Source: the human T2T-CHM13v2.0 reference genome, Homo sapiens. Taken from it: 64,000 nucleotides of DNA. This document shows positions 13,129 to 25,876 of this stretch, piece by piece; the stretch's first letter is position 1; each line of letters begins with the position of its first letter. Below the pieces are notes generated by a model. The model searched no databases. It was not told the DNA's origin and saw only the letters and a list, made by a program, of their open reading frames with translations. The stretch lies in NCBI RefSeq assembly GCF_009914755.1, contig NC_060928.1; one strand, given 5' to 3'. The position numbers and the translations under genes were made by a program.

Positions 13129-14461
13129 GACATAATTTGACAAGAAACATGGATAGGTGTTATTACAAGTTAAATACAGGTACAATTAAATGTCATGTTA
13201 AAATTGGTTAAGATCAGAAATAAAAGAGAAACCACAGAATTGTGATCAACATGGATTTAGAATAATTGACTATAGGCAGCATAATCAAGGAGAAACAATA
13301 ACAACTAACAATTATCAATGCCCTCTTTCCTATAGAGACAAGACTAAAAGACATATGTGTGTTTTTATTTTTATTTTTTGGAAATGCACACCATGTTTAT
13401 TATTATGGAAGGTAGTGTTTGTGTGTGTATGACACACACTTTCCCTACTGGAGAGACATGAACACATGTTATGCACATACCCACATATTTATACGCATCA
13501 TTTCAATATCATATTAACATGCTTTAGATAAAATATATTTTTAATTGTATTCATCCAAAAATATAATGGAATGCATTTAAAGCAATTTATCTGTTTCCTT
13601 TTTCCTTCTTTTATGTTCTACTTACATTTCTCCTTTATCTTTTCTTACTCTTTAAAATTAAATAAAATACCAATAGAATGTAGCAATTAAGTGGAATATA
13701 AATGATTCACATGGTGAATAAAAGAGAGATCCTTTGTGTGGTGTACTTGCCTAAGTAAAAGTTGTTTTATATGTGCCTTATATATTTCTATTCTGACAGT
13801 GTTGGAGAAAACCCATTATCCCTTTCATCAAAAAAGCCCAGTTTGAAGGGTAAAAATAGTAACATTTTTTATTTACAATGGTGTATCTAAAAAATTTTAA
13901 GCTTATAGTATTAATTTATTTTAAAATAATTAAAATTAGTAATAATTTATACCTTTAAAAATAATTTCAACTTTTATTTTAGATGCAGGGGGTACACGTG
14001 AAGGTTTATCACATGTATATATTTCATGATGCTGAGGTTTGGGATCTAATTGATCCCATCACCCAGGTACTAAGGATAGTACTTGATAGTTAGATTTTTA
14101 ACACTTACCTTCCTCACTCCCTGCTCTAGCAAGTCCCTAGTTTCTATTGCTGACATCTTTACATCCACGAGTAGCCATTGTGTAGCTCCTACTTATAAGT
14201 GATAACATGTAGGATTTGGGTTTTCTGTTCCCATGTTAAATACCTTAGGACAATGGTCTCCGTCTCCATCCATGTTGCTACAAAGGATATAATTTCATTC
14301 TGTTTATGGTTCCATAATATTCCATGGAGTACATATACCACATTTTCTTTATTCAACCCAACATTGATGGGCACCTATGTTGATTTCATGTCTTTGCTAT
14401 TGTGAATATTTCTGTGACAAATATAAGTGCATTATCTTTTTGGTGAAATGGTTTATTTTCA

Positions 14462-14612
14462 TGTATGTATATAAATGAAATATATATATATATACATGAA
14501 ATATATATATACATGAAATATATATATACATGAAATATATATATATATTAGCATTCAACTCAGCAATCCCATTTTATATATATATACACACACACACGAA
14601 ATATATATATAT
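14462..14612. repeat. AT-rich micro/minisatellite (catgaaatatatatata units; TA/CA runs) inside L1
   Basis: Read directly. Confidence 0.9.
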
Positions 14613-14656
14613 GGGATTGTTGAGTTTAATGGTAATTCTGTTTTAAGTTCACTGAA

Positions 14657-15041
14657 TGCATTAGTCCGTTCTCACACTGCTATAAAGAGCTACCTGAGAC
14701 TGGGTAATTTATGTAGAAAAGAGGTTTAATTGACTTACAGTTCTGTAGGCTGTACAGGAAGCATGGCTGGGAGACCTCAGGAAACTTACAATCATGATGA
14801 AAGGCAAAGAGGAAGCAAGTACATCTTAGCATGGTGGAGCAGGAGAGAGAGAGAGCAAAGGGGGAAGTGTTACACATTTTTAAACAACCATATCTTGTGA
14901 GAACTCACTCACTATCATAAGAACAGCAAGGGGGAAATCTGCCCCCATGATCCAGTCATCTCCCACCAGGTCCCTGTCCCAACACTGGAAATTAAAATTT
15001 GACGTGAGATTTGTTTAAGGACACAGAGCCAAATCATATCA
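14657..15041 (-). mobile_element. MSTA-like MaLR solo LTR inserted in L1
   Basis: tgcattagtcc...ccaaatcatatca termini; 'ggctgtacaggaagcatggctggg'; 5-bp TSD ctgaa/ctgag. Confidence 0.9.
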
Positions 15042-16519
15042 CTGAGAAATCTCCAAACTGCTCTCCATAGTGGCTGAACTAATTTACCTCCCCACCAACA
15101 GTGTATCAGCATCCCCTTTTCTTCACTGCCTTGCCAGCACTTGCTGTTTCTTGACTTTTTAGTAACAGCTATTCTGACTGGTGTGAGATGGTATCTCATT
15201 GTGGTTTGGATTTGCATTTATCTAATGATTAGTGATACTGAGCATATTTTCATATATTTGTTGGCTGCTTGTAGGTCTTCTTTTGAGAAGTGTCTGTTCA
15301 TGTCTTTTGCCCAATTTTTAATGGGAGTATTTGCTTTTTGTCTCTTGATTTTTTTAAGTTTCCTATATATTCTGGATATTTGGCATTTGCCAGATACATA
15401 ATTTGTGAATATTTTCTCCCATTCTGTAGGTTGTTTGTTTACTCTTTTGATGGTTTCTTTTGCTATGCAGAAACTCTAATTTAATTAGATCCCACTTGTC
15501 AATTTTTGTTTTTGTTGCAATGGGTTTTGAGGACTAAGTAAAATTCTTTCATAAGGCTGATGTCCAGAATGGTGTTTCCTGGAATTTTTTTTCTAGAGTT
15601 ATTAAAGTTTGAGGTCTTACATATAAATCTGTTATACATCTCGAATTAAATTTTGTACATGAGGAAATGTAGTGATCCAGCTTCATTCTGCATATGACTA
15701 GCCAATTATCCAAGCACCATTTATTGTATAGGGAGTCCTTTCTCCATTGCTTATTTTGGTCAACTTTGTCAAAGATCATATTACTGTAGGTGTGTGGCTT
15801 TATTTCTGGTTTCTCCATTCTGTTTCATTGGCCTGTGTGTGTTTCTGTACCAGCACCATGCTGTTTGGGTACAGTGGCCTTATAGTAGAGTTTGAAGTCA
15901 GCTAATGTTACACCTCTGGTTTTGCTCTTTTTGATTGCTTTGTCTATATGGGTTCTTCTTTGTTTCCATATGAATTTTAGAATAATTGTTTCTAATTCTA
16001 TGAAGAATTACATTGGTAGTTTAATAGAAATAGTGTTGAATCTGTGGATTGTTTGGGGCTACATGACCCTTTTAATAATAATGAGTCTTTCAATCCATGT
16101 GCATGCAATTTTTTTTCATTTCTTTGTGTAATATATGATATATTTCAGCAGTGTTTTTTAGTTCTTGTAGTAATTTTTCACCTTCTTGGTTAGCTGTATT
16201 TCTAGATATTTAAATTTTACAGCTATTGTAGATTGAATTGCATTCTTAATTTGGCTTGTGGCTAGAACATTATTAGTGTATAGAAATGCTACTAATTTTT
16301 ATACATTGATTTTGTATGCTGAAACTTTATTGAAGTCATTTATCAGTTCCAGGAGCCTTTTGGTGGAGTCTTTAGTGTTTTCTAGGTATAGAATCATATT
16401 GTCAGTGAAAAGAGATAATTTGACTTTTTAAAATCTTATATGGATGCTTTTATTTCTTTCTCTTGTCTGATTGTTCTGGAAAGTACTTCCAACACAAGTA
16501 TTGTATTGAAGAGGTGAAG

Positions 16520-16569
16520 GAAGACTGTTTCTTTGTCTCGTTTCGAAGACTGTTTCGTTGTCTTGTTTC
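16520..16569. repeat. 25-bp tandem duplication (gaagactgtttc[t/g]ttgtct[c/t]gtttc x2) within L1
   Basis: Read directly, 2 mismatches. Confidence 0.9.
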
Positions 16570-18434
16570 AGTTTTCAAGGGGAATATTTCTAGTTTTCTG
16601 CCCGTTTAATATGTTGGTATCTTCATTTAATGCCTATTTTCTTGAGATCTTTTATAATGAAGAGATGTTGAATTTTGTCAACACCTTTTTCTGTGTCTAT
16701 TGAGATGATCATATGGTTTTTATTTTAATCTGTTCATGTGGTGAATCACATTTATTGATTTTGCTATGTTGAACCAAGATTTCATCTCAGGAATAAAGCC
16801 TACTTGATCATGTTGGACTAACCTTTGATATACTGTTTGATTTTGTTGTGTCTTCTTAAAGATTTTTGCATCTATGTTCATCAGATATGTTGGACTTTAT
16901 TACCCACGGTGAGCATTAGACAGTACATCAGGGCAGAAAACTAATAAATAAATTCTGGACTTAAATTCAACACTTGACCAATTGTTCCTAAGAGAAATCT
17001 ACAGGACAGTCTACCCATCAACACATCAACAATAGAATGTATATTCTTCTCCTCTGCACACGACACATACTCCAAGATCAACCACATGGTCAACCATAAA
17101 ACAAGTCTGAATAAATTTAAAAAATAGAAATCATACCAACCATACTCTTGGACCACAGTGGAACAATACCAAGAATCAATACCAAGAAGATATCTGAAAA
17201 TCACACAACTACATGGAAATGAAACAACGTGTCCCTGAATGACTTTTGGGTAAACAATAAACTTAAGGCAGAAATAAAAATCTTCTTTCAAATAAATGAA
17301 ACAGAGGCACAACATACCAATGTCCCTGGGATGCACCATAAACAGTGTTAAGTGGAAAGTTTGCAGTGCTAAACACCTACCTCAAAAAATTAGAAATATC
17401 TCAAATTAACAAGCTAACTTTACATCTAGAAAAACAAGAAAAAAGTAACCCCAAAGCTTGCAGATGAAAATAAATAACTAAAATTTGAGCAGAATTGAAC
17501 AAAAGTGAGAATAAAAAAATCTATACAAAGAACCAAGAAAACCAAAAGTTGTTTTTTTTTGCAAGGTTAAACAAGATCAGTGGACTGCTAGCTGGATTAA
17601 CAAAGAAAAAGAAAACAGAGAGACAACCAAAATAAACACAATCGTAAATGACAAAGGTGACACTGGAACTGATTCCATAGAAATGCAAAAGGTCTCGTAG
17701 ACTACTATGACCACCTCCATGCACATCAACTAGAAAATCTAGGGGAAATGTATGCATTCCTGGAAACAAACAATCTCCCAAGATTGAATCAGGAAGCAGG
17801 AGTAACTATAAAGAGACTAATATTGAGTTCTGAAATGGAATCTGTAATAAAAAATATACCAACCAGAGAGAGTCCTTGAGCAGAAAAATTCACAGCTGAA
17901 TTCTACCAGATAAACAAAGAGCTAGTACCAATACTACTGAAACTATTCCAAAAAATTAGGGAGGAAGGCTTCTTTCCTTAATCATTCTACCAAACCAGCA
18001 TCATCCTGATACCAAAACCTGGCAAAGACACAAGAAAATAAATTAAAAATAATAATTATTTATACTATAAATGAATTTATACACTGTTACAATTTGTTGC
18101 AAAACATACATTTTGCTCATTTTTGTTTTATTCAATTAAACATTTATCTTAATGTCTTCATTTATTTTTAAAATGCAATTTCTAAGTTTTTGATGTGGAA
18201 AATATAGCAATGTAAACAGAAACATTTGTAATAGTGTGCTTTTAAGATCAAAAGAATCATATTCATTTTCTTCTTTCAAGGAAACATCATCTATAAAGCC
18301 ATCCAATACCTTTTTGAATCTGGTTTCAGTATCAAAAATTCATAAGAATTAAATTAGAGATTGTATGTAACTTTCATATGCCATACTAAAAACATCACTG
18401 TATGAAAGCTGCTCTTACTGTAGTTCGATTACTT

Positions 18435-18767
18435 GGGGATTAAAGCCTGTTATCACTCGCCTGCTACAGCATGGGCTTCTAAAACCTATAAACTCTCCTT
18501 ACAATTCTCCCATTTTGTCTGTTCAAAAACCGGACAAGTCTTACAGGTTAGTTCAGGATCTGCGCCTTATCAACCAAATTGTTTTGCCTGTCCACCCTGT
18601 GGTGCCCAACCCATACACTCTTTTGTCCTCAATACCTTCCTCCACAACTCACTATTCTGTTCTTGATCTTAAAGATGCTTTTTTCACTATTCCCCTACAC
18701 CCCTCGTCCCAGCCTCTCTTTGCTTTTACCTGGACTGACCCTGACACCATCAGTCCCAGCAGCTTAA
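18435..18767 (+). pseudogene. pol: HERV-H pol (RT N-terminal) fragment; inverted duplicate of 19878-20210
   Basis: Peptide [21 protein letters not shown]...[27 protein letters not shown] is a gammaretroviral RT motif A region. Confidence 0.95.
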
Positions 18768-18824
18768 TGTCACGTGCGTCCATGAGAAGAGACCACTAAA
18801 CAGGATTTGTGTGAGCAACAAGGC
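18768..18824 (-). mobile_element. HERV-H LTR terminal (R/U5) 57-bp fragment
   Basis: Reverse complement matches 19821-19877 and ends ...gtgaca. Confidence 0.95.
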
Positions 18825-18825
18825 A

Positions 18826-18970
18826 GATATCCAGTGGGGTCCCGTACAGATGGGACATGGTTTAGGAAGAATCCTGGGCTGCGGGCATTCCTTGGCCCAG
18901 TGGCCAGATTTCCACACTTGAAGCAAGATCCTAGGGGAGGAGATCCTAGAGGAATGCCTGACCACTGTGG
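18826..18970 (-). pseudogene. gag: Displaced HERV-H gag nucleocapsid (zinc knuckle) fragment
   Basis: [28 protein letters not shown]; same-orientation homologue of 20854-20999. Confidence 0.92.
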
Positions 18971-19441
18971 CTTTTTACCTAAATCAATCTGGCCTGGTAT
19001 ATGACAACATAAAAAAACTCAAGGATAGAGCCCAAAAATTCGCCAACCAAGCAAATAATTATGCTGAACCCCCTTGGGCACTCCCTAATTGGATGTCCTG
19101 GGTCCTCCCAATTCTTAGTCCTTTAATACCTATTTTTCTTCTCTTATTCGGACTTTCCATTTAGTTTCTCAATTCATGCAAAAACGCATCCAGGCCATCA
19201 CCAAGCATTCTATACAATAAACACTCCTTCTAACAAGCCCACAATATCACCCCTTACACCCAAATCTTTCTTCAATTTTCTCTCTCCCACTCTAGGTTCC
19301 TACCCCACCCCTAATCCTGCTTGAAGCAGCCCTGAGAAACATCACCCATTATCTCTCCATACCACCCCCCAAAATTTTCGCCCCCTCAACACTTCACCAC
19401 TATTTTGTTTTGTTTTTCTTATTAATATAAGAAGACAGGAA
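18971..19441 (+). pseudogene. env: HERV-H env TM C-terminal remnant, 3' untranslated region and polypurine tract
   Basis: FYLNQSGLVYDNIKKLKDRAQKFANQANNYAEPPWALPNWMSWVLPILSPLIPIFLLLFG; purine run 'aagaagacaggaa' abuts the LTR. Confidence 0.92.
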
Positions 19442-19877
19442 TGTCAGGCGTCTGAGCCCAAGCTAAGCCATCATATCCCCTGTGACCTGCATGTATACAT
19501 CCAGATGGCCTGAAACAACTGAATATCCATGAAATAAGTGAAAATAGCCTTAACTGATGACATTCCACCATTGTGATTTGTTTCTGCCCCACCCTAACTG
19601 ATCAATGTACTTTGTAAAAATCTCGCCCACCCTTAGGAAGGTTCTTCGTAATTCTCCCCACCCTTGAGAATATACTTCGTGAGATCCACCCCCTGCCTGC
19701 AAAACATTTCTCCTAACTCCACTGCCTATCCCAAAACCTATAAGAACTAATGATAATCCCACCACCCTTTACTGACTCTCTTTTGGGACTCAGCCTGCCT
19801 GCACCCAGGTGAAATAAACAGCCTTGTTGCTCACACAAAGCCTGTTTGGTGGTCTTTTCACATGGACGTGCATGACA
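19442..19877 (+). mobile_element. HERV-H 3' LTR (LTR7 family, LTR7B/C-like)
   Basis: tgtcaggcgtctgagcccaagctaagcc...catgaca; TG..CA termini; tataa ~19739; aataaa 19813-19818; preceded by PPT. Confidence 0.96.
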
Positions 19878-20620
19878 TTAAGCTGCTGGGACTGATGGGT
19901 GTCAGGGTCAGTCCAGGTAAAAGAAACAGAGGCTGGGACGAGGGGTGTAGGGAAATAGTGAAAAAAGCGTCTTTAAGATCAAGAACAGAATAGTGAGTCG
20001 TAGAGGAAGGTATTGAGGACAAAAGAGTGTACGGGTTGGGCACCACAGGGTGGACAGGCAAAACAATTTGGTTGATAAGGCGCAGATCCTGAACTAACCT
20101 GTAAGACTTGTCCCGTTTTTGAACAGGTAAAATGGGAGAATTGTAAGGAGAGTTTATAGGTTTTAGAAGCCCATGGCGTAGCAGGCAAGTGATAACAGGC
20201 TTTAATCCCCTTAAAGCCTGTTATGGGATGGGATACTGGCATTGGGTGGGGTGATTAGGTTTTAACGAGATAGTAATGGGCATGTGATCGGTTGCCAGGG
20301 AGGGTGTGGAGGTGTCCCATACTTGTGGGTTAAGGTGGGGGGATATGAGAGGAAGATGTGAAGGAGGCTCTGGGTTGGGAAGAAGGGTGGCAATGAGATG
20401 TGGCTGTGGTCCAGGAATAATCAGGGAAGCAGATAATTTGGTTAAAATGTCTCGGCCTAATAAGGGAACTGGGCAGGTGGGGATAACTGAAAAAGAGTAC
20501 ATAAAAGAATGTTGTCCAAGTTGGCACCAGAGTGGGGGAGTTTTAAGGGGTTTTGAAGCTTGGCTGTCAATACTCAGAACAGTTATGGGGCCAAGGGAAA
20601 ACAGGCCCTTCAAAAGAAGG
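19878..20620 (-). pseudogene. pol: HERV-H pro and 5' pol (RT), frameshifted, truncated at the LTR junction
   Basis: ...PTCPVPLLGRDILTKL (protease), ...[23 protein letters not shown] (RT). Confidence 0.93.
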
Positions 20621-20699
20621 TAATGTGGAGTGGGTAGCCCCCGTTATCGATTAAACAAGGGATGGACTTACCCTCCACTGTAAGAGTTACTTGAAGCTC

Positions 20700-21992
20700 G
20701 GCATCCTTGATGGTCCAGGGGGCTTCTGAGGTGATCGGGCAGCATCAGTCTTCAACTGCTAAGCTGAGGAGATCTGGGAAGGAGTCAGTCAGAGAGCCTT
20801 GGGCCAGAGTTACAGGGGCTCTGGGAGTGGCTGCCAGGAGAGTTGGACAGTCCGATTTCCAGTGGGTTCCCTCACAGTTGGGACACAGCTTAGGAGGAAT
20901 CCCAGGTTGTGGGCATTCCTTGGCCCAGTGGCCAGATTTCCAGCACTTGAAACAAAATCCTGGGGGAGGCGGTCCTGGAGGAACACCTGGCCACTGCGGT
21001 TTAGACGTTTTGAAGTTCTTGTGTACTGGAAATGTGGCTGGGATTTCTCTCACAGTGGAGGCAAGTAATTGCAATTCAGAAATATGTTGCTACTTGGCTG
21101 CCTCTATTCTATTATTGTACACCTTGAAGGCGAGGTTAGTTAGGTCCTGTTGTGGGGTTTGAGGGCCAGAATCTAATTTTTGGAGCTTTTTCTAAAGTCG
21201 GGAGCGGATTGGGTAATAAAATGCATATTGAGAATAAGACAGCCTTCTTCTGGGGTCTAGGACAGTAAAGCGTCTAAGGATTGTTGCCAAATGGGCCATG
21301 AACTGGGCTGGGTTTTTATATTTGATGAAAAAGAGCCTAAATGCTAACTGATTTGGGAGAGGTTGGATGAAGAAAAACGAGAATTAACCCTGACTATTCT
21401 CCAGCCACCTCTTTAAGAGGAAATTGTTGGGCAGGTGGGGGAGGGCTAGTCGCAGAACGAAACTGTAAGCCAGACCAGGTGTGAGGAGGGGAGGTGATAG
21501 AAAGATTTTAGGGTGGGGGAGCAGAGGCTGAGGAAGAATTGGGACCTGGCTAGGCCTGGCGAGGAGCAGCCTGGGGGAGAAGGGGAGAGGTCAGATGAGT
21601 CCGTAGAAAAGAAGGATTCAAAGGTCTCAGAGCTTGGAGTGGAGACTGAAGGAACAGACAGGAGAGAAAGAATAAAGATTTGGGATCAGTGGCATTGGGA
21701 GCAGAGAGTAGGGAGGGACCAATGTGTAAAAGAAGGCCTGGATGTCAGGCACCTCAGATCATTTGCCCATTTTTCAATAAAAATTATCTAGATCATGTAG
21801 GATAGACAAATCGAAAGTGCCATTCTCTGGCCACTTGGAACTACTGTCGAGTTTGTACTGGGGCCAAACAGTATTGCAGAAGAAAATAAGACGCTTAGAT
21901 TTTGGGTCAGGAGAGAGTTGGAGAGGTTTTAATTTCTTGAGAACACAGGCTAAGGGAGAAGAAGGAGGAATGGAGGGTGGAAGGTTGCCCAT
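20700..21992 (-). pseudogene. gag: HERV-H gag, disrupted (MA start MGNLPPSIPPSSPLAC...; NC with CX2CX4HX4C and a second knuckle)
   Basis: ORFs 21774-22205 and 20745-21074 ([27 protein letters not shown]); not continuous. Confidence 0.92.
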
Positions 21993-22079
21993 AGTGAAGG
22001 AGGCAAGTTTAAAGAGAAGGTTAGAGACACGGAGAAGTGGGGTGGGGAGTAGCCCTGGACTGCAATGTGGGTGAGCAGC

Positions 22080-22225
22080 CAAAGCAGGCGTCCGCGCAAT
22101 TGACTTACCACCATGGGAATGTGAGTGAATGACCAAGGCAGGCGTCCCCGTGGTGATCAGACACCAATGGAATGTGAGTGAATAATCAGGCAGGCATCCC
22201 CACAATGATTAAACACCAAGGGAAG
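22080..22225 (-). repeat. ~53-bp imperfect tandem repeats (about 3 copies) in the HERV-H leader
   Basis: Repeated 'gcaggcgtcc...cacca...ggaatgtgagtgaat'. Confidence 0.8.
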
Positions 22226-22380
22226 GCTGTCTTTCTGAGTCCGTGACCTGTGCCGGAGTTTTGGGTCCACTGATAAAATGTGTCTCCTTTGTCTCTACTA
22301 GAGAGGAAAAAGAACAGGAATTGGAAGGACAGGGAGATTGAAGGGTAGCGAGAGAGCCTGGAGAAGAGAGTGAAAAGACC

Positions 22381-22389
22381 GCTTACCCG
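22381..22389 (-). promoter_or_regulatory. HERV-H major splice donor (CGG|GTAAGC)
   Basis: Reverse complement of 'gcttacccg', ~140 nt downstream of the 5' LTR, the known position of the HERV-H donor. Confidence 0.75.
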
Positions 22390-22509
22390 ATTTGAAATTG
22401 GTGAGAAGTTCCTTGGGCTGGTTGGTCTGAGGACCCAAAGTCATAGGTGGATCTCTTCACGGAGTGAGGATGAGGACAGGAGACTGGTCTCCCGAAGGAG
22501 TCCCTCTGA

Positions 22510-22527
22510 CCCAGGTCTTCTGCACCA
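22510..22527 (-). promoter_or_regulatory. Primer-binding site TGGTGCAGAAGACCTGGG (tRNA-Phe-like)
   Basis: Starts after a 2-nt spacer from the LTR end; closer to Phe PBS TGGTGCCGAAACCCGGGA than His PBS TGGTGCCGTGACTCGGAT. Confidence 0.8.
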
Positions 22528-22529
22528 AA

Positions 22530-22961
22530 TGTCTCACGCGTCCTTGTGAAGAAAGTCCACCAACAGGATTTGTGTGAACAGCAAGGCTGTTTATTTCACC
22601 TGGGTGCAGGTGGGCTGAGTCCAAAAAAGGAGTCAGCGAAGGGTGGTGGGATTATCATTAGTTCTTACAGGTTTTGGGACAGGCGGTGGAGTTAGGAGCA
22701 ATGTTTTGCCGGCAGGTGGTGGATCTCACAATATACATTCTCAAGGGTGGGGAGAATTACAAAGAACCTTCTTAAGGGAGGGAAATTACAAAGTACATTG
22801 ATCAGTTAGGGTGGGGCAGAAACAAATCACAATGGTGGAATGTCATCAGTTAAGGCTATTTTCACTTATTTTGTGGATGTTTAGTTGTTTCAGGCCATCT
22901 GGATGTATATATGCAGGTCACAGGGGATATGATGGCTTAGCTTGGGCTCAGAGGCCTGACA
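22530..22961 (-). mobile_element. HERV-H 5' LTR (LTR7 family, LTR7B/C-like)
   Basis: Reverse complement tgtcaggcctctgagcccaagctaagcc...gtgagaca, followed by PBS, leader and gag. Confidence 0.96.
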
Positions 22962-25876
22962 ATTAGCAGCCAGATGCTAATGGCACTATCTGAGCAAAGT
23001 AAATCTGATAAACTGGCAAAGTTTAATTGTTGGCTCAATACAGAACTTATATTCTAAAAAACTGCATTGTCTTTCCGGATGAATTTATGACAAGTTGTGG
23101 AATTCCATTTAAACAGAATGTTGAAAAATACTAGCTCCTAAGAAAAAACTAGTTATAATACCTGCTGGAGGGACAAAGGACAATTAGTGATGTCATGTCT
23201 CTGACAGTATTTCATCCTCCATGTTTCTCACCTTCAGGAAAGAATAATCCTCATGATAAAAGGTATATTTTTGTATTTCTTTTCCTCATTCATTTGTCTC
23301 TATTGTCACGTATTTGAAGTCCCTGTGTAGCATGGAAAAAGTCTTACTTATATTTCATTGCATGGATTCAATAAATATTTGCATATTTTTGACAGTTTTA
23401 TTTCAAGTGACTGTACTATTCAAAATGTATTTGTCAAAAAAGACTCAAATATAAACATATTTACATTAATATTATTAATTGAATTTACCCATACACATTA
23501 AAACTAAAAGGTTAAATATGAAATGATCTTCACTCTATTTATTTAGAATTAATTGCTTCCCTATTATTTAAAATATAATGCATGCATGTTTATATTTTTT
23601 AGCCAATGTTTCTATAGAGTTCCCTTAATACTAAAATTATTTTAAAATTTAAACATCAGAACATTTTTCCATTTCTGCAAGACTACTCATTGCTTTTACT
23701 GGACATATTTACATTTCAATTATATTTTTATAATTTATCTGTTCAACAGCTTATGGTTTATAACATTTTAATACAATTCTAACTTGGCAGAATCAAAATT
23801 AAACTAGAGAGTTTTTGAAAACTCATAACCTGTCAACTTTAGAGAACAATTCTAGTGAATAGTCAAATTATATACCAAAACCAAAAATATCCAAGGCTAG
23901 AAGAAGATTTAATTGGACATATTGTTAAATATCTAGAAAGTTTACTCGAATAGCAGTTGAGCTCTAATACAAAAACTGTATTTTATTATGTCATCTATTT
24001 TGCTTTTATATGTATCTGGATTACACATGTTCTTGACCTGTATTCCTGTCACAAATAAACATTTGGTATCGCTAGTTAGTACAGAAAAACATGAGAAATG
24101 GTTGGAAGTTAAATTTATCTTTGTATTTTGAAATACACATGGAAACAAGAATAACTTCTTCAGTATTACTTATTATGCAGATTATAATTTCACAGTTGTT
24201 TTCTCACATCTATTTCATCGAGTCTCCTAATAAAAAATAATAATTCTAACACAACTCTAACAGTGACTGAGCTGCCAAAAATATCACTGCCAATGAATTA
24301 AATCATGTTGTTTACAATAATTTGCTGACTCTTAATCTGAAGAAAGTACTTTGTGGAACTAATGGTGATGCTAATTGTGCATTTCTATGCTCTGAAATGA
24401 CAATGATATCATAACAAGTTAATCTCATTTCAATGTGCATTTCGGATGCAAACCACAAAATATATTACAAAAGACATTTTGATTAAAGTTTGCTAAAGGT
24501 AAAGTTTTTAAGAAAACAAATGTTTCTCATTTATTTATGCTTGTGAATCTCCTATATACATGGTCTTTTATTTGTGGGGGAGAAGGGAGATTATGATAAG
24601 TGATTGATACAAAAAAGGAATAAATATTTATTTTGATAGCTACACGTAAACGTATACTGAGGCCTATGTGCAAATTTTAATTAGAACATTAACAGTAAAA
24701 TGTGATGACTAATTTTGCAAGGCAAATACTATCCTGCAATTTGTAGTATGTATTGGCAATAATATAATTTTTTCTCTTGATTATTTAGTAGCTAGATTTT
24801 AATTTAGTTGATTGTATAACTCACTGACTCTTGTTATCAATTATTTTGGTTACTTTTTAGCGTACATACCACATGAAAAGCAAGAAAAGGTAAAGAGCCA
24901 AAAATTTAACTTATTAAAAATTTTCATTTTTATTATTTTATTATCCTTTCAATTTTTAGCAATTCTATCATTATGCTTAGTGACAAAGCAGAGTAACATG
25001 AAATTTTTTTTAAAATCTGCAAACTAAAAATTAGCATGTTTACAAATACCAAAATAAATCAAAATCAGAATGAAGAAACAGCTTTTTATAAAGAAATGTA
25101 GGAATCAGATTTTAAAAAGAAATCAAAATAGCAACTAAAATTGTTTTCTCAAACTTCTGGTCATACTTCCAACAGGACTGTTAGATATCTCCTAGGTAGG
25201 CTGTCACGGGTTTCTCTGTTGATGATTTCCAATTACTTTTCAGAATTGATAAATCGTTGTGTTGAACTTTAAATTGTGTCCAAAACTTAAAATTTCTTAA
25301 GAATAAAGTTAAACTCAGATTATTTAACTTATAAAGATTCTTCACATGTATGGTTTCATTCAATCTATATGACTTTATTAGATTTGTCCAACAATCCTAA
25401 TTGTAAAAATTAATTACATAACTTGATTTCTCAAATATATGTTCTTAGGCTAGCTTTTTTTTCTGAATTTTCTAAGCCCTACATGTAATAATTACATGAG
25501 CTAATAAATTACAAATATTTTAAAATTTAGAACACACATGTTTCCCTATAGTGTGTTAAGATTTTATTAAATACATGCTCTCAATTTAAAGCTACATCAC
25601 TTAATGAACGTGTTTAGTTTATTCAAAGTGAAACTATGCAATTCCTGTTGACCATAACATTACACAGGTTTTAATAGAAATTTAAACAATAAATCCTTGG
25701 ATCCCATACTATATAATCATACTTTATATAAATAACTACTTTTATTTCATTCTCTCCTATATGTATGGTTTCTATTTATTTTACTAGCCATTTGCAATGT
25801 TTAGGACCTATACATTCTCGCTGTGTTCTGAGCCTTAGGGTGGATTGTATTTCTCTCTCTCTCTGCTAAATATAAT

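What the first reader, a model, noticed from the sequence alone, without database searches (positions are those of the whole stretch)
18435..20210. ~390-bp inverted duplication that copies the abnormal LTR/pol junction itself
Seen: 18435-18824 is the reverse complement of 19821-20210. Each arm has ~333 bp of RT plus the terminal 57 bp of LTR, with the same junction (cagcagcttaa|tgtca). The arms are ~1 kb apart and differ by roughly 5-6% by eye, largely CpG-type transitions. Inference: the copy was made after the LTR-pol fusion, by template switching during gap repair or replication. The divergence says it is old rather than a recent assembly duplication.
Basis: partly seen in the sequence, partly recalled or inferred. 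Interest (0 to 1): 0.7.

Follow-up and report, generated by a model that had tools for sequence, protein, structure and literature searches.

The report
Fossil of a botched retrovirus insertion
An old endogenous retrovirus on human chromosome 4 is folded back on itself: one viral end that still carries the two bases normally trimmed before insertion is joined backwards into the viral polymerase gene, and that joint occurs twice, likely because two viral DNAs fused and host repair patched the loose end at about the time of insertion; no function is shown.

Summary
The inverted duplication is real: 18435-18824 and 19821-20210 differ at 19 of 389 sites (4.9%; 8 CpG-type). The LTR|pol junction was found only in these two arms. 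The locus is a broken HERV-H-type provirus: left flank, pol copy, U5 end, reversed gag piece, env end plus LTR, then reversed pol-gag-LTR, right flank. Four new points. (1) The junction keeps the TT that follows U5 before the primer-binding site, the mark of an untrimmed viral DNA end, which argues against an integrase-made joint. (2) The two LTRs share U3 markers but differ in R/U5 type, and the gag piece is 16% from the local gag, so two viral genomes likely contributed. (3) The left arm ends in the loop of the longest perfect hairpin in the window. (4) The arms split about as deep as independent related proviruses, so the copy is about as old as the insertion. Best reading (0.5): a one-ended integration with an end-to-internal fusion, finished by template-switch repair, as known from HIV and ASLV vectors. 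Main rival (0.3): capture into an older provirus, rearranged later. No function shown.

The parts
18435..18765 (+). Left arm, pol part: copy of the start of reverse transcriptase; begins at the position that is the hairpin loop in the right-hand original
   Evidence: Pfam RVT_1 E 1e-9; MLV-type RT best in PDB, E 6e-36; 12 of 332 differences to the right arm; loop position
18766..18767 (-). Copy of the two bases (TT on the LTR strand) that follow the U5 end; the first overlaps pol by one base
18768..18824 (-). Left arm, terminal 57 bp of an LTR (U5 end)
   Evidence: 7 of 57 differences to 19821-19877
18826..18973 (-). Inserted 148-bp gag piece (zinc-knuckle region), 16% different from the local gag; likely templated during repair
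   Evidence: zf-CCHC E 0.004, under the Pfam cut-off; 24 of 148 differences to 20854-21002; 2-bp microhomology to env
18974..19441 (+). 3' end of env (transmembrane part), 3' untranslated region and polypurine tract
   Evidence: Pfam TLV_coat E 5e-7; same purine tract before other 3' LTRs; 87-91% to other copies
19442..19877 (+). Complete 3'-type LTR, inverted relative to the rest of the provirus
   Evidence: 91-93% to the 39 best other LTRs; TG...CA ends
19878..19879 (+). Retained end dinucleotide TT at the LTR|pol fusion
   Evidence: LTR-LTR BLAST match runs two bases past the LTR end; TT follows 14 of 15 primer-site-flanked LTR ends and 3 of 34 host-flanked ends
19821..20210 (-). Right arm: the original fusion, source of the left arm
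20192..20224 (.). Perfect 14-bp hairpin with 5-nt loop (20206-20210); the copy ends at the loop
   Evidence: only perfect stem of 8 or more in 18300-23100 and the longest in the window; DNA fold z -2.7
19880..22529 (-). 5' half of the provirus: primer-binding site, leader, broken gag, protease and pol cut off in RT
   Evidence: Pfam zf-CCHC, RVP, RVT_1; frames broken
22530..22961 (-). 5' LTR; its outer (U3) end meets host DNA cleanly, as an integrase-made end would; R/U5 of another type than the inverted LTR
   Evidence: overlaps the RefSeq enhancer 21995-23194 (annotation given with the finding)
22962..22966 (+). Five host bases at the clean end; no exact copy at the left junction, a 4-of-5 match at 18428-18432 (about 0.13 by chance, my estimate)
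   Evidence: 5-bp duplications at sibling LTRs

Best explanation
This is likely the fossil of a faulty insertion: an LTR end that keeps its terminal TT is joined backwards into pol, probably of a second HERV-H DNA, integrase likely inserted only the clean end at 22961, and host repair would then have bridged the loose side to the chromosome by copying nearby viral pieces. Steps: (1) shown: the 3'-type LTR plus TT is fused to reversed pol; inferred: the joint was made by reverse transcriptase jumping to a second template or by host end-joining or priming, not by normal integrase strand transfer. (2) shown: the U3 end at 22961 is clean; inferred: integrase made it. (3) shown: the left side has no LTR end and holds two copied pieces (390-bp junction copy, 148-bp gag); inferred: a 3' end switched templates three times, losing most of the second genome, with one switch at the hairpin loop and one at a 2-bp microhomology. 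(4) inferred from branch lengths: this happened at about the time of insertion.
For: TT: pol explains only the first base, the second differs in 28 of 28 other copies; TT follows 14 of 15 primer-site-flanked LTR ends but 3 of 34 host-flanked ends; retained end dinucleotides mark integrase-independent joining in HIV (PMC3605128, passages). Two genomes: the LTRs differ at 9 non-CpG columns, about 4 events, all from position 299 on, where both states occur in other LTRs, against 4, 0 and 1 in three true LTR pairs (a tenth column was my cut one base short); the gag piece differs from local gag at 24 of 148, with three such sites and no shared rare state. Linked origin: two U3 substitutions shared by both LTRs, exact pattern in 3 LTRs genome-wide. 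Timing: arm end branches 0.010 and 0.030, shared stem 0.006, nearest independent copies 0.007-0.038; true LTR pairs differ by 17-33 of 432. Hairpin: 6 of 2649 positions lie in or at that loop. One clean end plus appended viral pieces in either orientation is the pattern described for HIV and ASLV vectors (PMC5041404, Discussion read whole).
Against: The TT argument rests on one informative base; a single early point change would mimic it. The AU test does not reject the gag piece and local gag as sisters (p 0.16), and 20 of the 39 comparison copies were chosen for closeness to the piece. Both shared U3 markers lie in the first 175 bp, which has fewer private changes than expected (6 of 18, p 0.035), so later gene conversion could have made them; each marker also occurs alone in 4 and 2 of 51 other LTRs. 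One heritable marker at LTR position 299, probably in U3, differs between the LTRs, which a simple jump in R does not predict. The left-arm U5 shares one rare base with the 5' LTR, not with its supposed source, unexplained. Tree support for the arms is under the starred level. No outgroup genome could be read, so timing is indirect.
Confidence: 0.5

Rival explanations
1. Nested event in two stages: a second HERV-H DNA entered pol of an already integrated provirus in the opposite orientation (captured at a break, or inserted by integrase with a later point change), and a later germline rearrangement removed the inner halves and copied the junction.
For: Explains the two R/U5 types and the divergent gag piece directly. 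Capture at breaks keeps the end dinucleotide (PMC3605128). Shared U3 markers could be later conversion (p 0.035); conversion between LTRs is described as frequent (PMC6298018, passages).
Against: Needs a hit inside another HERV-H pol, a small target, plus conversion or a chance of about 0.003 for the U3 markers. The stem shared by the arms is short (0.006 against 0.010-0.030), leaving little time between stages.
Confidence: 0.3
2. One ordinary provirus was rearranged later by replication template switching, and the haplotype differences come from ectopic gene conversion by other HERV-H copies.
For: Template switching and microhomology are general host processes; U3 markers are shared; AU p 0.16 for gag.
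Against: An integrated 3' LTR would be followed by the host 5-mer seen at the clean end, which starts with another base than the junction does. A random break exactly at the LTR end with TT is unlikely. Conversion would have to cover R/U5 and gag separately or over about 1.7 kb.
Confidence: 0.12
3. True autointegration: integrase inserted the trimmed U5 end into the element's own pol in the opposite strand while the other end went into the chromosome.
For: The joint is at the LTR's CA end and gives the inversion geometry expected of autointegration (geometry recalled; the process is described in PMC3381236, passages).
Against: The extra base after CA is not pol sequence in 28 of 28 copies, and the two LTRs should then be of one R/U5 type.
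Confidence: 0.06
4. Assembly artefact or recent duplication.
For: Repeat-rich HERV-H sequence can be misassembled.
Against: Arms differ by 4.9% with private changes on both sides; both flanks are single-copy; the window has no N.
Confidence: 0.02

Closest known systems
Aberrant one-ended integrations of HIV-1 and ASLV vectors (PMC5041404; passages and the whole Discussion read)
   Same: One normal end; the other joined to appended viral pieces in either orientation, several pieces in a row, short or no homology, no normal target-site duplication.
   Different: Here it is a natural germline insertion of an MLV-like element, present in the reference genome; two viral haplotypes seem involved; the aberrant junction is itself copied; no host duplication was found.
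Integrase-independent capture of retroviral DNA at double-strand breaks (PMC3605128; passages read)
   Same: Terminal dinucleotide retained at the LTR end.
   Different: The partner is viral pol, only one end shows the mark, and most of that viral DNA is lost.
Retroviral autointegration (PMC3381236; passages read)
   Same: LTR end joined inside viral DNA in inverted orientation.
   Different: Autointegration uses trimmed ends and one molecule and is normally a dead end; here the end looks untrimmed and the product is chromosomal.
HERV-H / LTR7 inter-element recombination (PMC8912925; passages read)
   Same: Block exchange between LTR types, ascribed to template switching between co-packaged RNAs.
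   Different: Those recombinants are colinear and spread as subfamilies; this one is inverted, single-copy and a dead end.
Replication template-switch rearrangements (FoSTeS/MMBIR; recalled, no paper read)
   Same: Several short templated pieces, inverted copy, 0-2 bp microhomology, break at a hairpin.
   Different: One breakpoint coincides with a viral DNA end, which these processes do not predict.

Membership tests
HERV-H (LTR7 type) | MLV-like gag, pro, pol, env pieces | tested here: met
   Pfam zf-CCHC, RVP, RVT_1, TLV_coat; MLV RT best in PDB
HERV-H (LTR7 type) | Member of a family of several hundred to thousands of close genomic copies | tested here: met
   1124-2841 first-look candidates, best 91-97%
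HERV-H (LTR7 type) | Match to the Dfam LTR7/HERVH models and subfamily | not testable with these tools
Normal provirus | Two LTRs in direct orientation with a 5-bp target-site duplication | tested here: not met
   LTRs are inverted; no exact duplication
One-ended (aberrant) integration | One clean LTR-host junction | tested here: met
   22961/22962, LTR complete to its terminal base, purine tract absent, single-copy flank
One-ended (aberrant) integration | Other side joined through appended viral or host pieces | tested here: met
   junction copy and gag piece between env and the left flank
One-ended (aberrant) integration | Rearrangement coincident with insertion | tested here: inconclusive
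   branch lengths fit; no outgroup genome available
One-ended (aberrant) integration | Deletion or large duplication of flanking host DNA | tested here: inconclusive
   no duplication seen; a deletion needs the empty site
Autointegrant | Trimmed end (CA) joined directly to viral target sequence | tested here: not met
   an extra base matching the untrimmed end; 28 of 28 other pol copies lack it
Autointegrant | Both LTRs from one molecule, same R/U5 | tested here: not met
   R/U5 types differ; later conversion not excluded

The most novel reading that the evidence does not exclude
A germline fossil of a two-genome accident: the untrimmed end of one HERV-H DNA ran onto a second, co-packaged genome in reverse, giving a fold-back molecule that entered the chromosome by one proper end and was finished by host template switching at a pol hairpin. 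It would be natural evidence for the one-ended integration pathway known from drug-treated HIV and mutant ASLV vectors, and retained end dinucleotides would offer a way to find more such fossils.
Probability: 0.3. Interest if true: 0.6.

Novelty: new variant of a known kind. Interest (0 to 1): 0.4.

Why it matters
If right, it shows that one-ended integration with host repair also happened in the primate germline and left a readable record: an untrimmed end, templated pieces and a hairpin breakpoint. It also warns that LTR-LTR dating fails at such loci, since the two LTRs are mosaics (8-10% apart against 3.6% for the pol arms). A transcript from the 5' LTR would hold both arms and is predicted to form a long duplex (377 pairs), and the LTR overlaps an annotated enhancer, but no expression was tested. 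It is one locus without a gene, so the wider weight is modest. Nine full-text searches listed no description of this locus or of such a structure in an endogenous retrovirus; the library lacks most subscription papers and I read no supplements.

Tried and rejected
Junction inherited from a family member: not found in 38 other best hits or as an exact 16-mer; search is a lower bound. Junction as a recurring class: a strict pattern for LTR ends followed by TT and a non-T found 11 places (the pattern drops about a quarter of cases by design and missed this locus too); of 10 fetched, none joined reversed internal sequence, one was a mutated primer site, two had unrelated weak hits; the eleventh was already held as a solo-type LTR. 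The chr2 LTR sharing both U3 markers is a solo-type LTR with a different middle block, not a parent. Raw identity as a test of sisterhood: misleading because of unequal private changes. The two LTRs as plain sisters: first suggested, weakened when more LTRs were added. Of five intended control LTR pairs three were usable; one proved a solo LTR beside a 3' LTR and one failed the coverage filter. Linking the gag piece to a pol or U5 type through its nearest relatives was inconclusive: they are 80-95% to the arms and mostly of other LTR types. A repeat or paralog spanning the empty site: both flanks single-copy. Similarity of pol at the break to the primer site: looked at by eye, not convincing. 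Earlier findings were not available. Structure tools were not relevant.

Full report
Observation. The two arms are as stated: 18435-18824 is the reverse complement of 19821-20210 with 19 mismatches in 389 columns (4.9%), 14 transitions, 8 CpG-type, and two 1-bp gaps. The pol part differs at 12 of 332, the LTR part at 7 of 57. A genome search with the junction scored the best 40 of 1774 candidates; the 38 outside the locus all stop at the pol side. The exact 16-base junction occurs only in the two arms; 85 one-mismatch matches are about what chance gives, and 8 of them that were fetched had no hit to the arms. Both flanks are single-copy.

Anatomy, on the plus strand. Host flank; pol copy 18435-18765; two bases; reversed U5 end 18768-18824; one unassigned base; reversed gag zinc-knuckle piece 18826-18973; env 3' end and purine tract to 19441; a full LTR 19442-19877; TT; reversed pol, protease, gag, leader and primer site 19880-22529; reversed LTR 22530-22961; host flank. 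Pfam confirms RT, protease, zinc knuckle and env pieces and the RT is MLV-like. All frames are broken.

The junction keeps the viral end. The match between the two LTRs runs two bases past the CA end: TT, the same two bases that lie between U5 and the primer site of the 5' LTR. Among held LTRs, TT follows 14 of 15 ends that face a primer site and 3 of 34 ends that face host DNA (2 of 51 ends could not be placed). Pol accounts for the first base only; the second differs in 28 of 28 other copies. Integrase removes such a dinucleotide before joining, and its retention marks integrase-independent joining in HIV (PMC3605128, passages). The argument rests on one informative base, so a single early mutation could mimic it.

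Two viral genomes. The two LTRs differ at 35 of 427 (pairwise) or 42 of 430 (multiple alignment). At 9 non-CpG columns, about four events, all from position 299 on, both states occur at least three times among 51 other LTRs; three true LTR pairs, identified by their 5-bp duplications, show 4, 0 and 1 such columns, and 1272 unrelated pairs have a median near 5. So R/U5 looks unrelated. In the first 175 bp the LTRs share two substitutions; the exact pattern occurs in 3 LTRs genome-wide, the third a chr2 solo-type LTR of another block type. Each marker alone occurs in 4 and 2 of 51 others, and this block has fewer private changes than the next (6 of 18, p 0.035), so conversion after insertion is possible. 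The gag piece differs from the local gag at 24 of 148, at three non-CpG sites where both states are common, and shares no rare state; it groups with local gag in 0 of 200 bootstrap trees, but the AU test does not reject the grouping (p 0.16), and half the comparison set was chosen for closeness to the piece. One base of the left-arm U5 agrees with the 5' LTR and not with the inverted LTR; I cannot explain it.

The copy and its ends. The arms are sisters in a tree of 29 pol rows (91/79; 90% of 200 bootstrap trees), although one chrX copy is closer to the left arm by raw distance (2.7% against 3.6%) because the right arm has 9 private changes and the left 3. End branches are 0.010 and 0.030 and the shared stem 0.006; the three nearest independent copies have 0.007-0.038. 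True LTR pairs of related proviruses differ by 17-33 of 432. The duplication is therefore about as old as insertions of this lineage. PMC8912925 (passages) dates LTR7 waves to 25-40, 9-20 and 4-10 million years; without a subfamily I give no date. The outer end of the left arm falls at the 5-base loop of a perfect 14-bp hairpin (20192-20224), the only perfect stem of 8 or more in 18300-23100 and the longest in the window. Six of 2649 positions in the right half lie in or at that loop; allowing for four junctions examined after the fact, about 1%. The gag/env join has a 2-bp microhomology inside a looser match, judged from one env copy; the U5/gag join has one base or none.

Mechanism. PMC5041404 (Discussion read whole) describes proviruses with one normal end and one end to which host polymerase appends viral pieces from either strand, several in a row. 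This locus works like that. I commit to: an untrimmed U5 end of one viral DNA was joined backwards into pol of a second, closely present HERV-H genome; integrase inserted the U3 end at 22961; the loose side lost most of its viral DNA and reached the left flank through three template switches that copied the gag piece and the junction. The layout, the TT, the differing R/U5 types and the hairpin position are shown; the enzymes, the order and the timing are inferred. Whether reverse transcriptase or host repair made the fusion cannot be told from this sequence. Confidence 0.5. Capture into an older provirus with later rearrangement gets 0.3, a single provirus with later rearrangement and conversion 0.12, true autointegration 0.06, artefact 0.02.

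Is it a class? A strict pattern found 11 other LTR ends followed by TT and a non-T (a lower bound that also missed this locus); none of 10 fetched joins reversed internal sequence. Nine paper searches listed nothing on this locus or on such a structure in an endogenous retrovirus. Papers seen: PMC5041404 (passages, Discussion), PMC8912925, PMC3605128, PMC12657518, PMC6298018, PMC3381236 (passages only); PMC12657518 covers aberrant strand transfers in HIV but has no word on inversions. No supplements were read; locus lists in those of PMC8912925 or PMC6298018 might include this element.

Verdict. A real, old, single-copy rearrangement, a new variant of a known kind of faulty integration, with no function shown. 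A transcript from the 5' LTR is predicted to pair the arms over 377 bases, untested. Interest 0.4.

Noticed in passing
window 13960-18035: An old L1 that looks 5'-inverted (minus part to about 16890, plus part about 16900-18035, seemingly contiguous in ORF2), interrupted by an LTR-type insert near 14658-15040 and an AT-rich tract, with a possible decayed target-site duplication near 13925-13955 and 18040-18066. Read by eye; family names recalled.
   Followed up: partly
window 21995-23194: The RefSeq enhancer covers the 5' LTR and leader of this provirus; the two LTRs face each other, so convergent transcription is possible.
   Followed up: no
window 18428-18432 and 22962-22966: A 4-of-5 match to the host 5-mer of the clean end lies two bases before the left junction; it may be a decayed target-site duplication or chance (about 0.13).
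   Followed up: partly
window 20192-20224; loci L003-L030: The pol hairpin is perfect in only 2 of 14 other copies where the motif was found; most have a weaker stem.
   Followed up: partly
L091 (G000:C2:89212100-89212600): A solo-type LTR that shares both U3 markers and the 5' LTR's U5 variant but has a different middle block: a mosaic LTR.
   Followed up: partly
L095 and L096 (G000:C14:28846305-28851250): A solo LTR with its own 5-bp duplication lies 4.5 kb upstream of a 3' LTR of another U5 type, possibly another nested HERV-H locus.
   Followed up: no
L068 and L070 (G000:C9:136341130-136342110): Two LTRs about 550 bp apart in the same orientation, each with its own flanking duplication.
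   Followed up: no
L061 (G000:C17:81301623) and L113 (G000:C5:119465150-119465550): Short tandem duplications at the U5/primer-site boundary in two other copies, hinting that this boundary is prone to slips.
   Followed up: no
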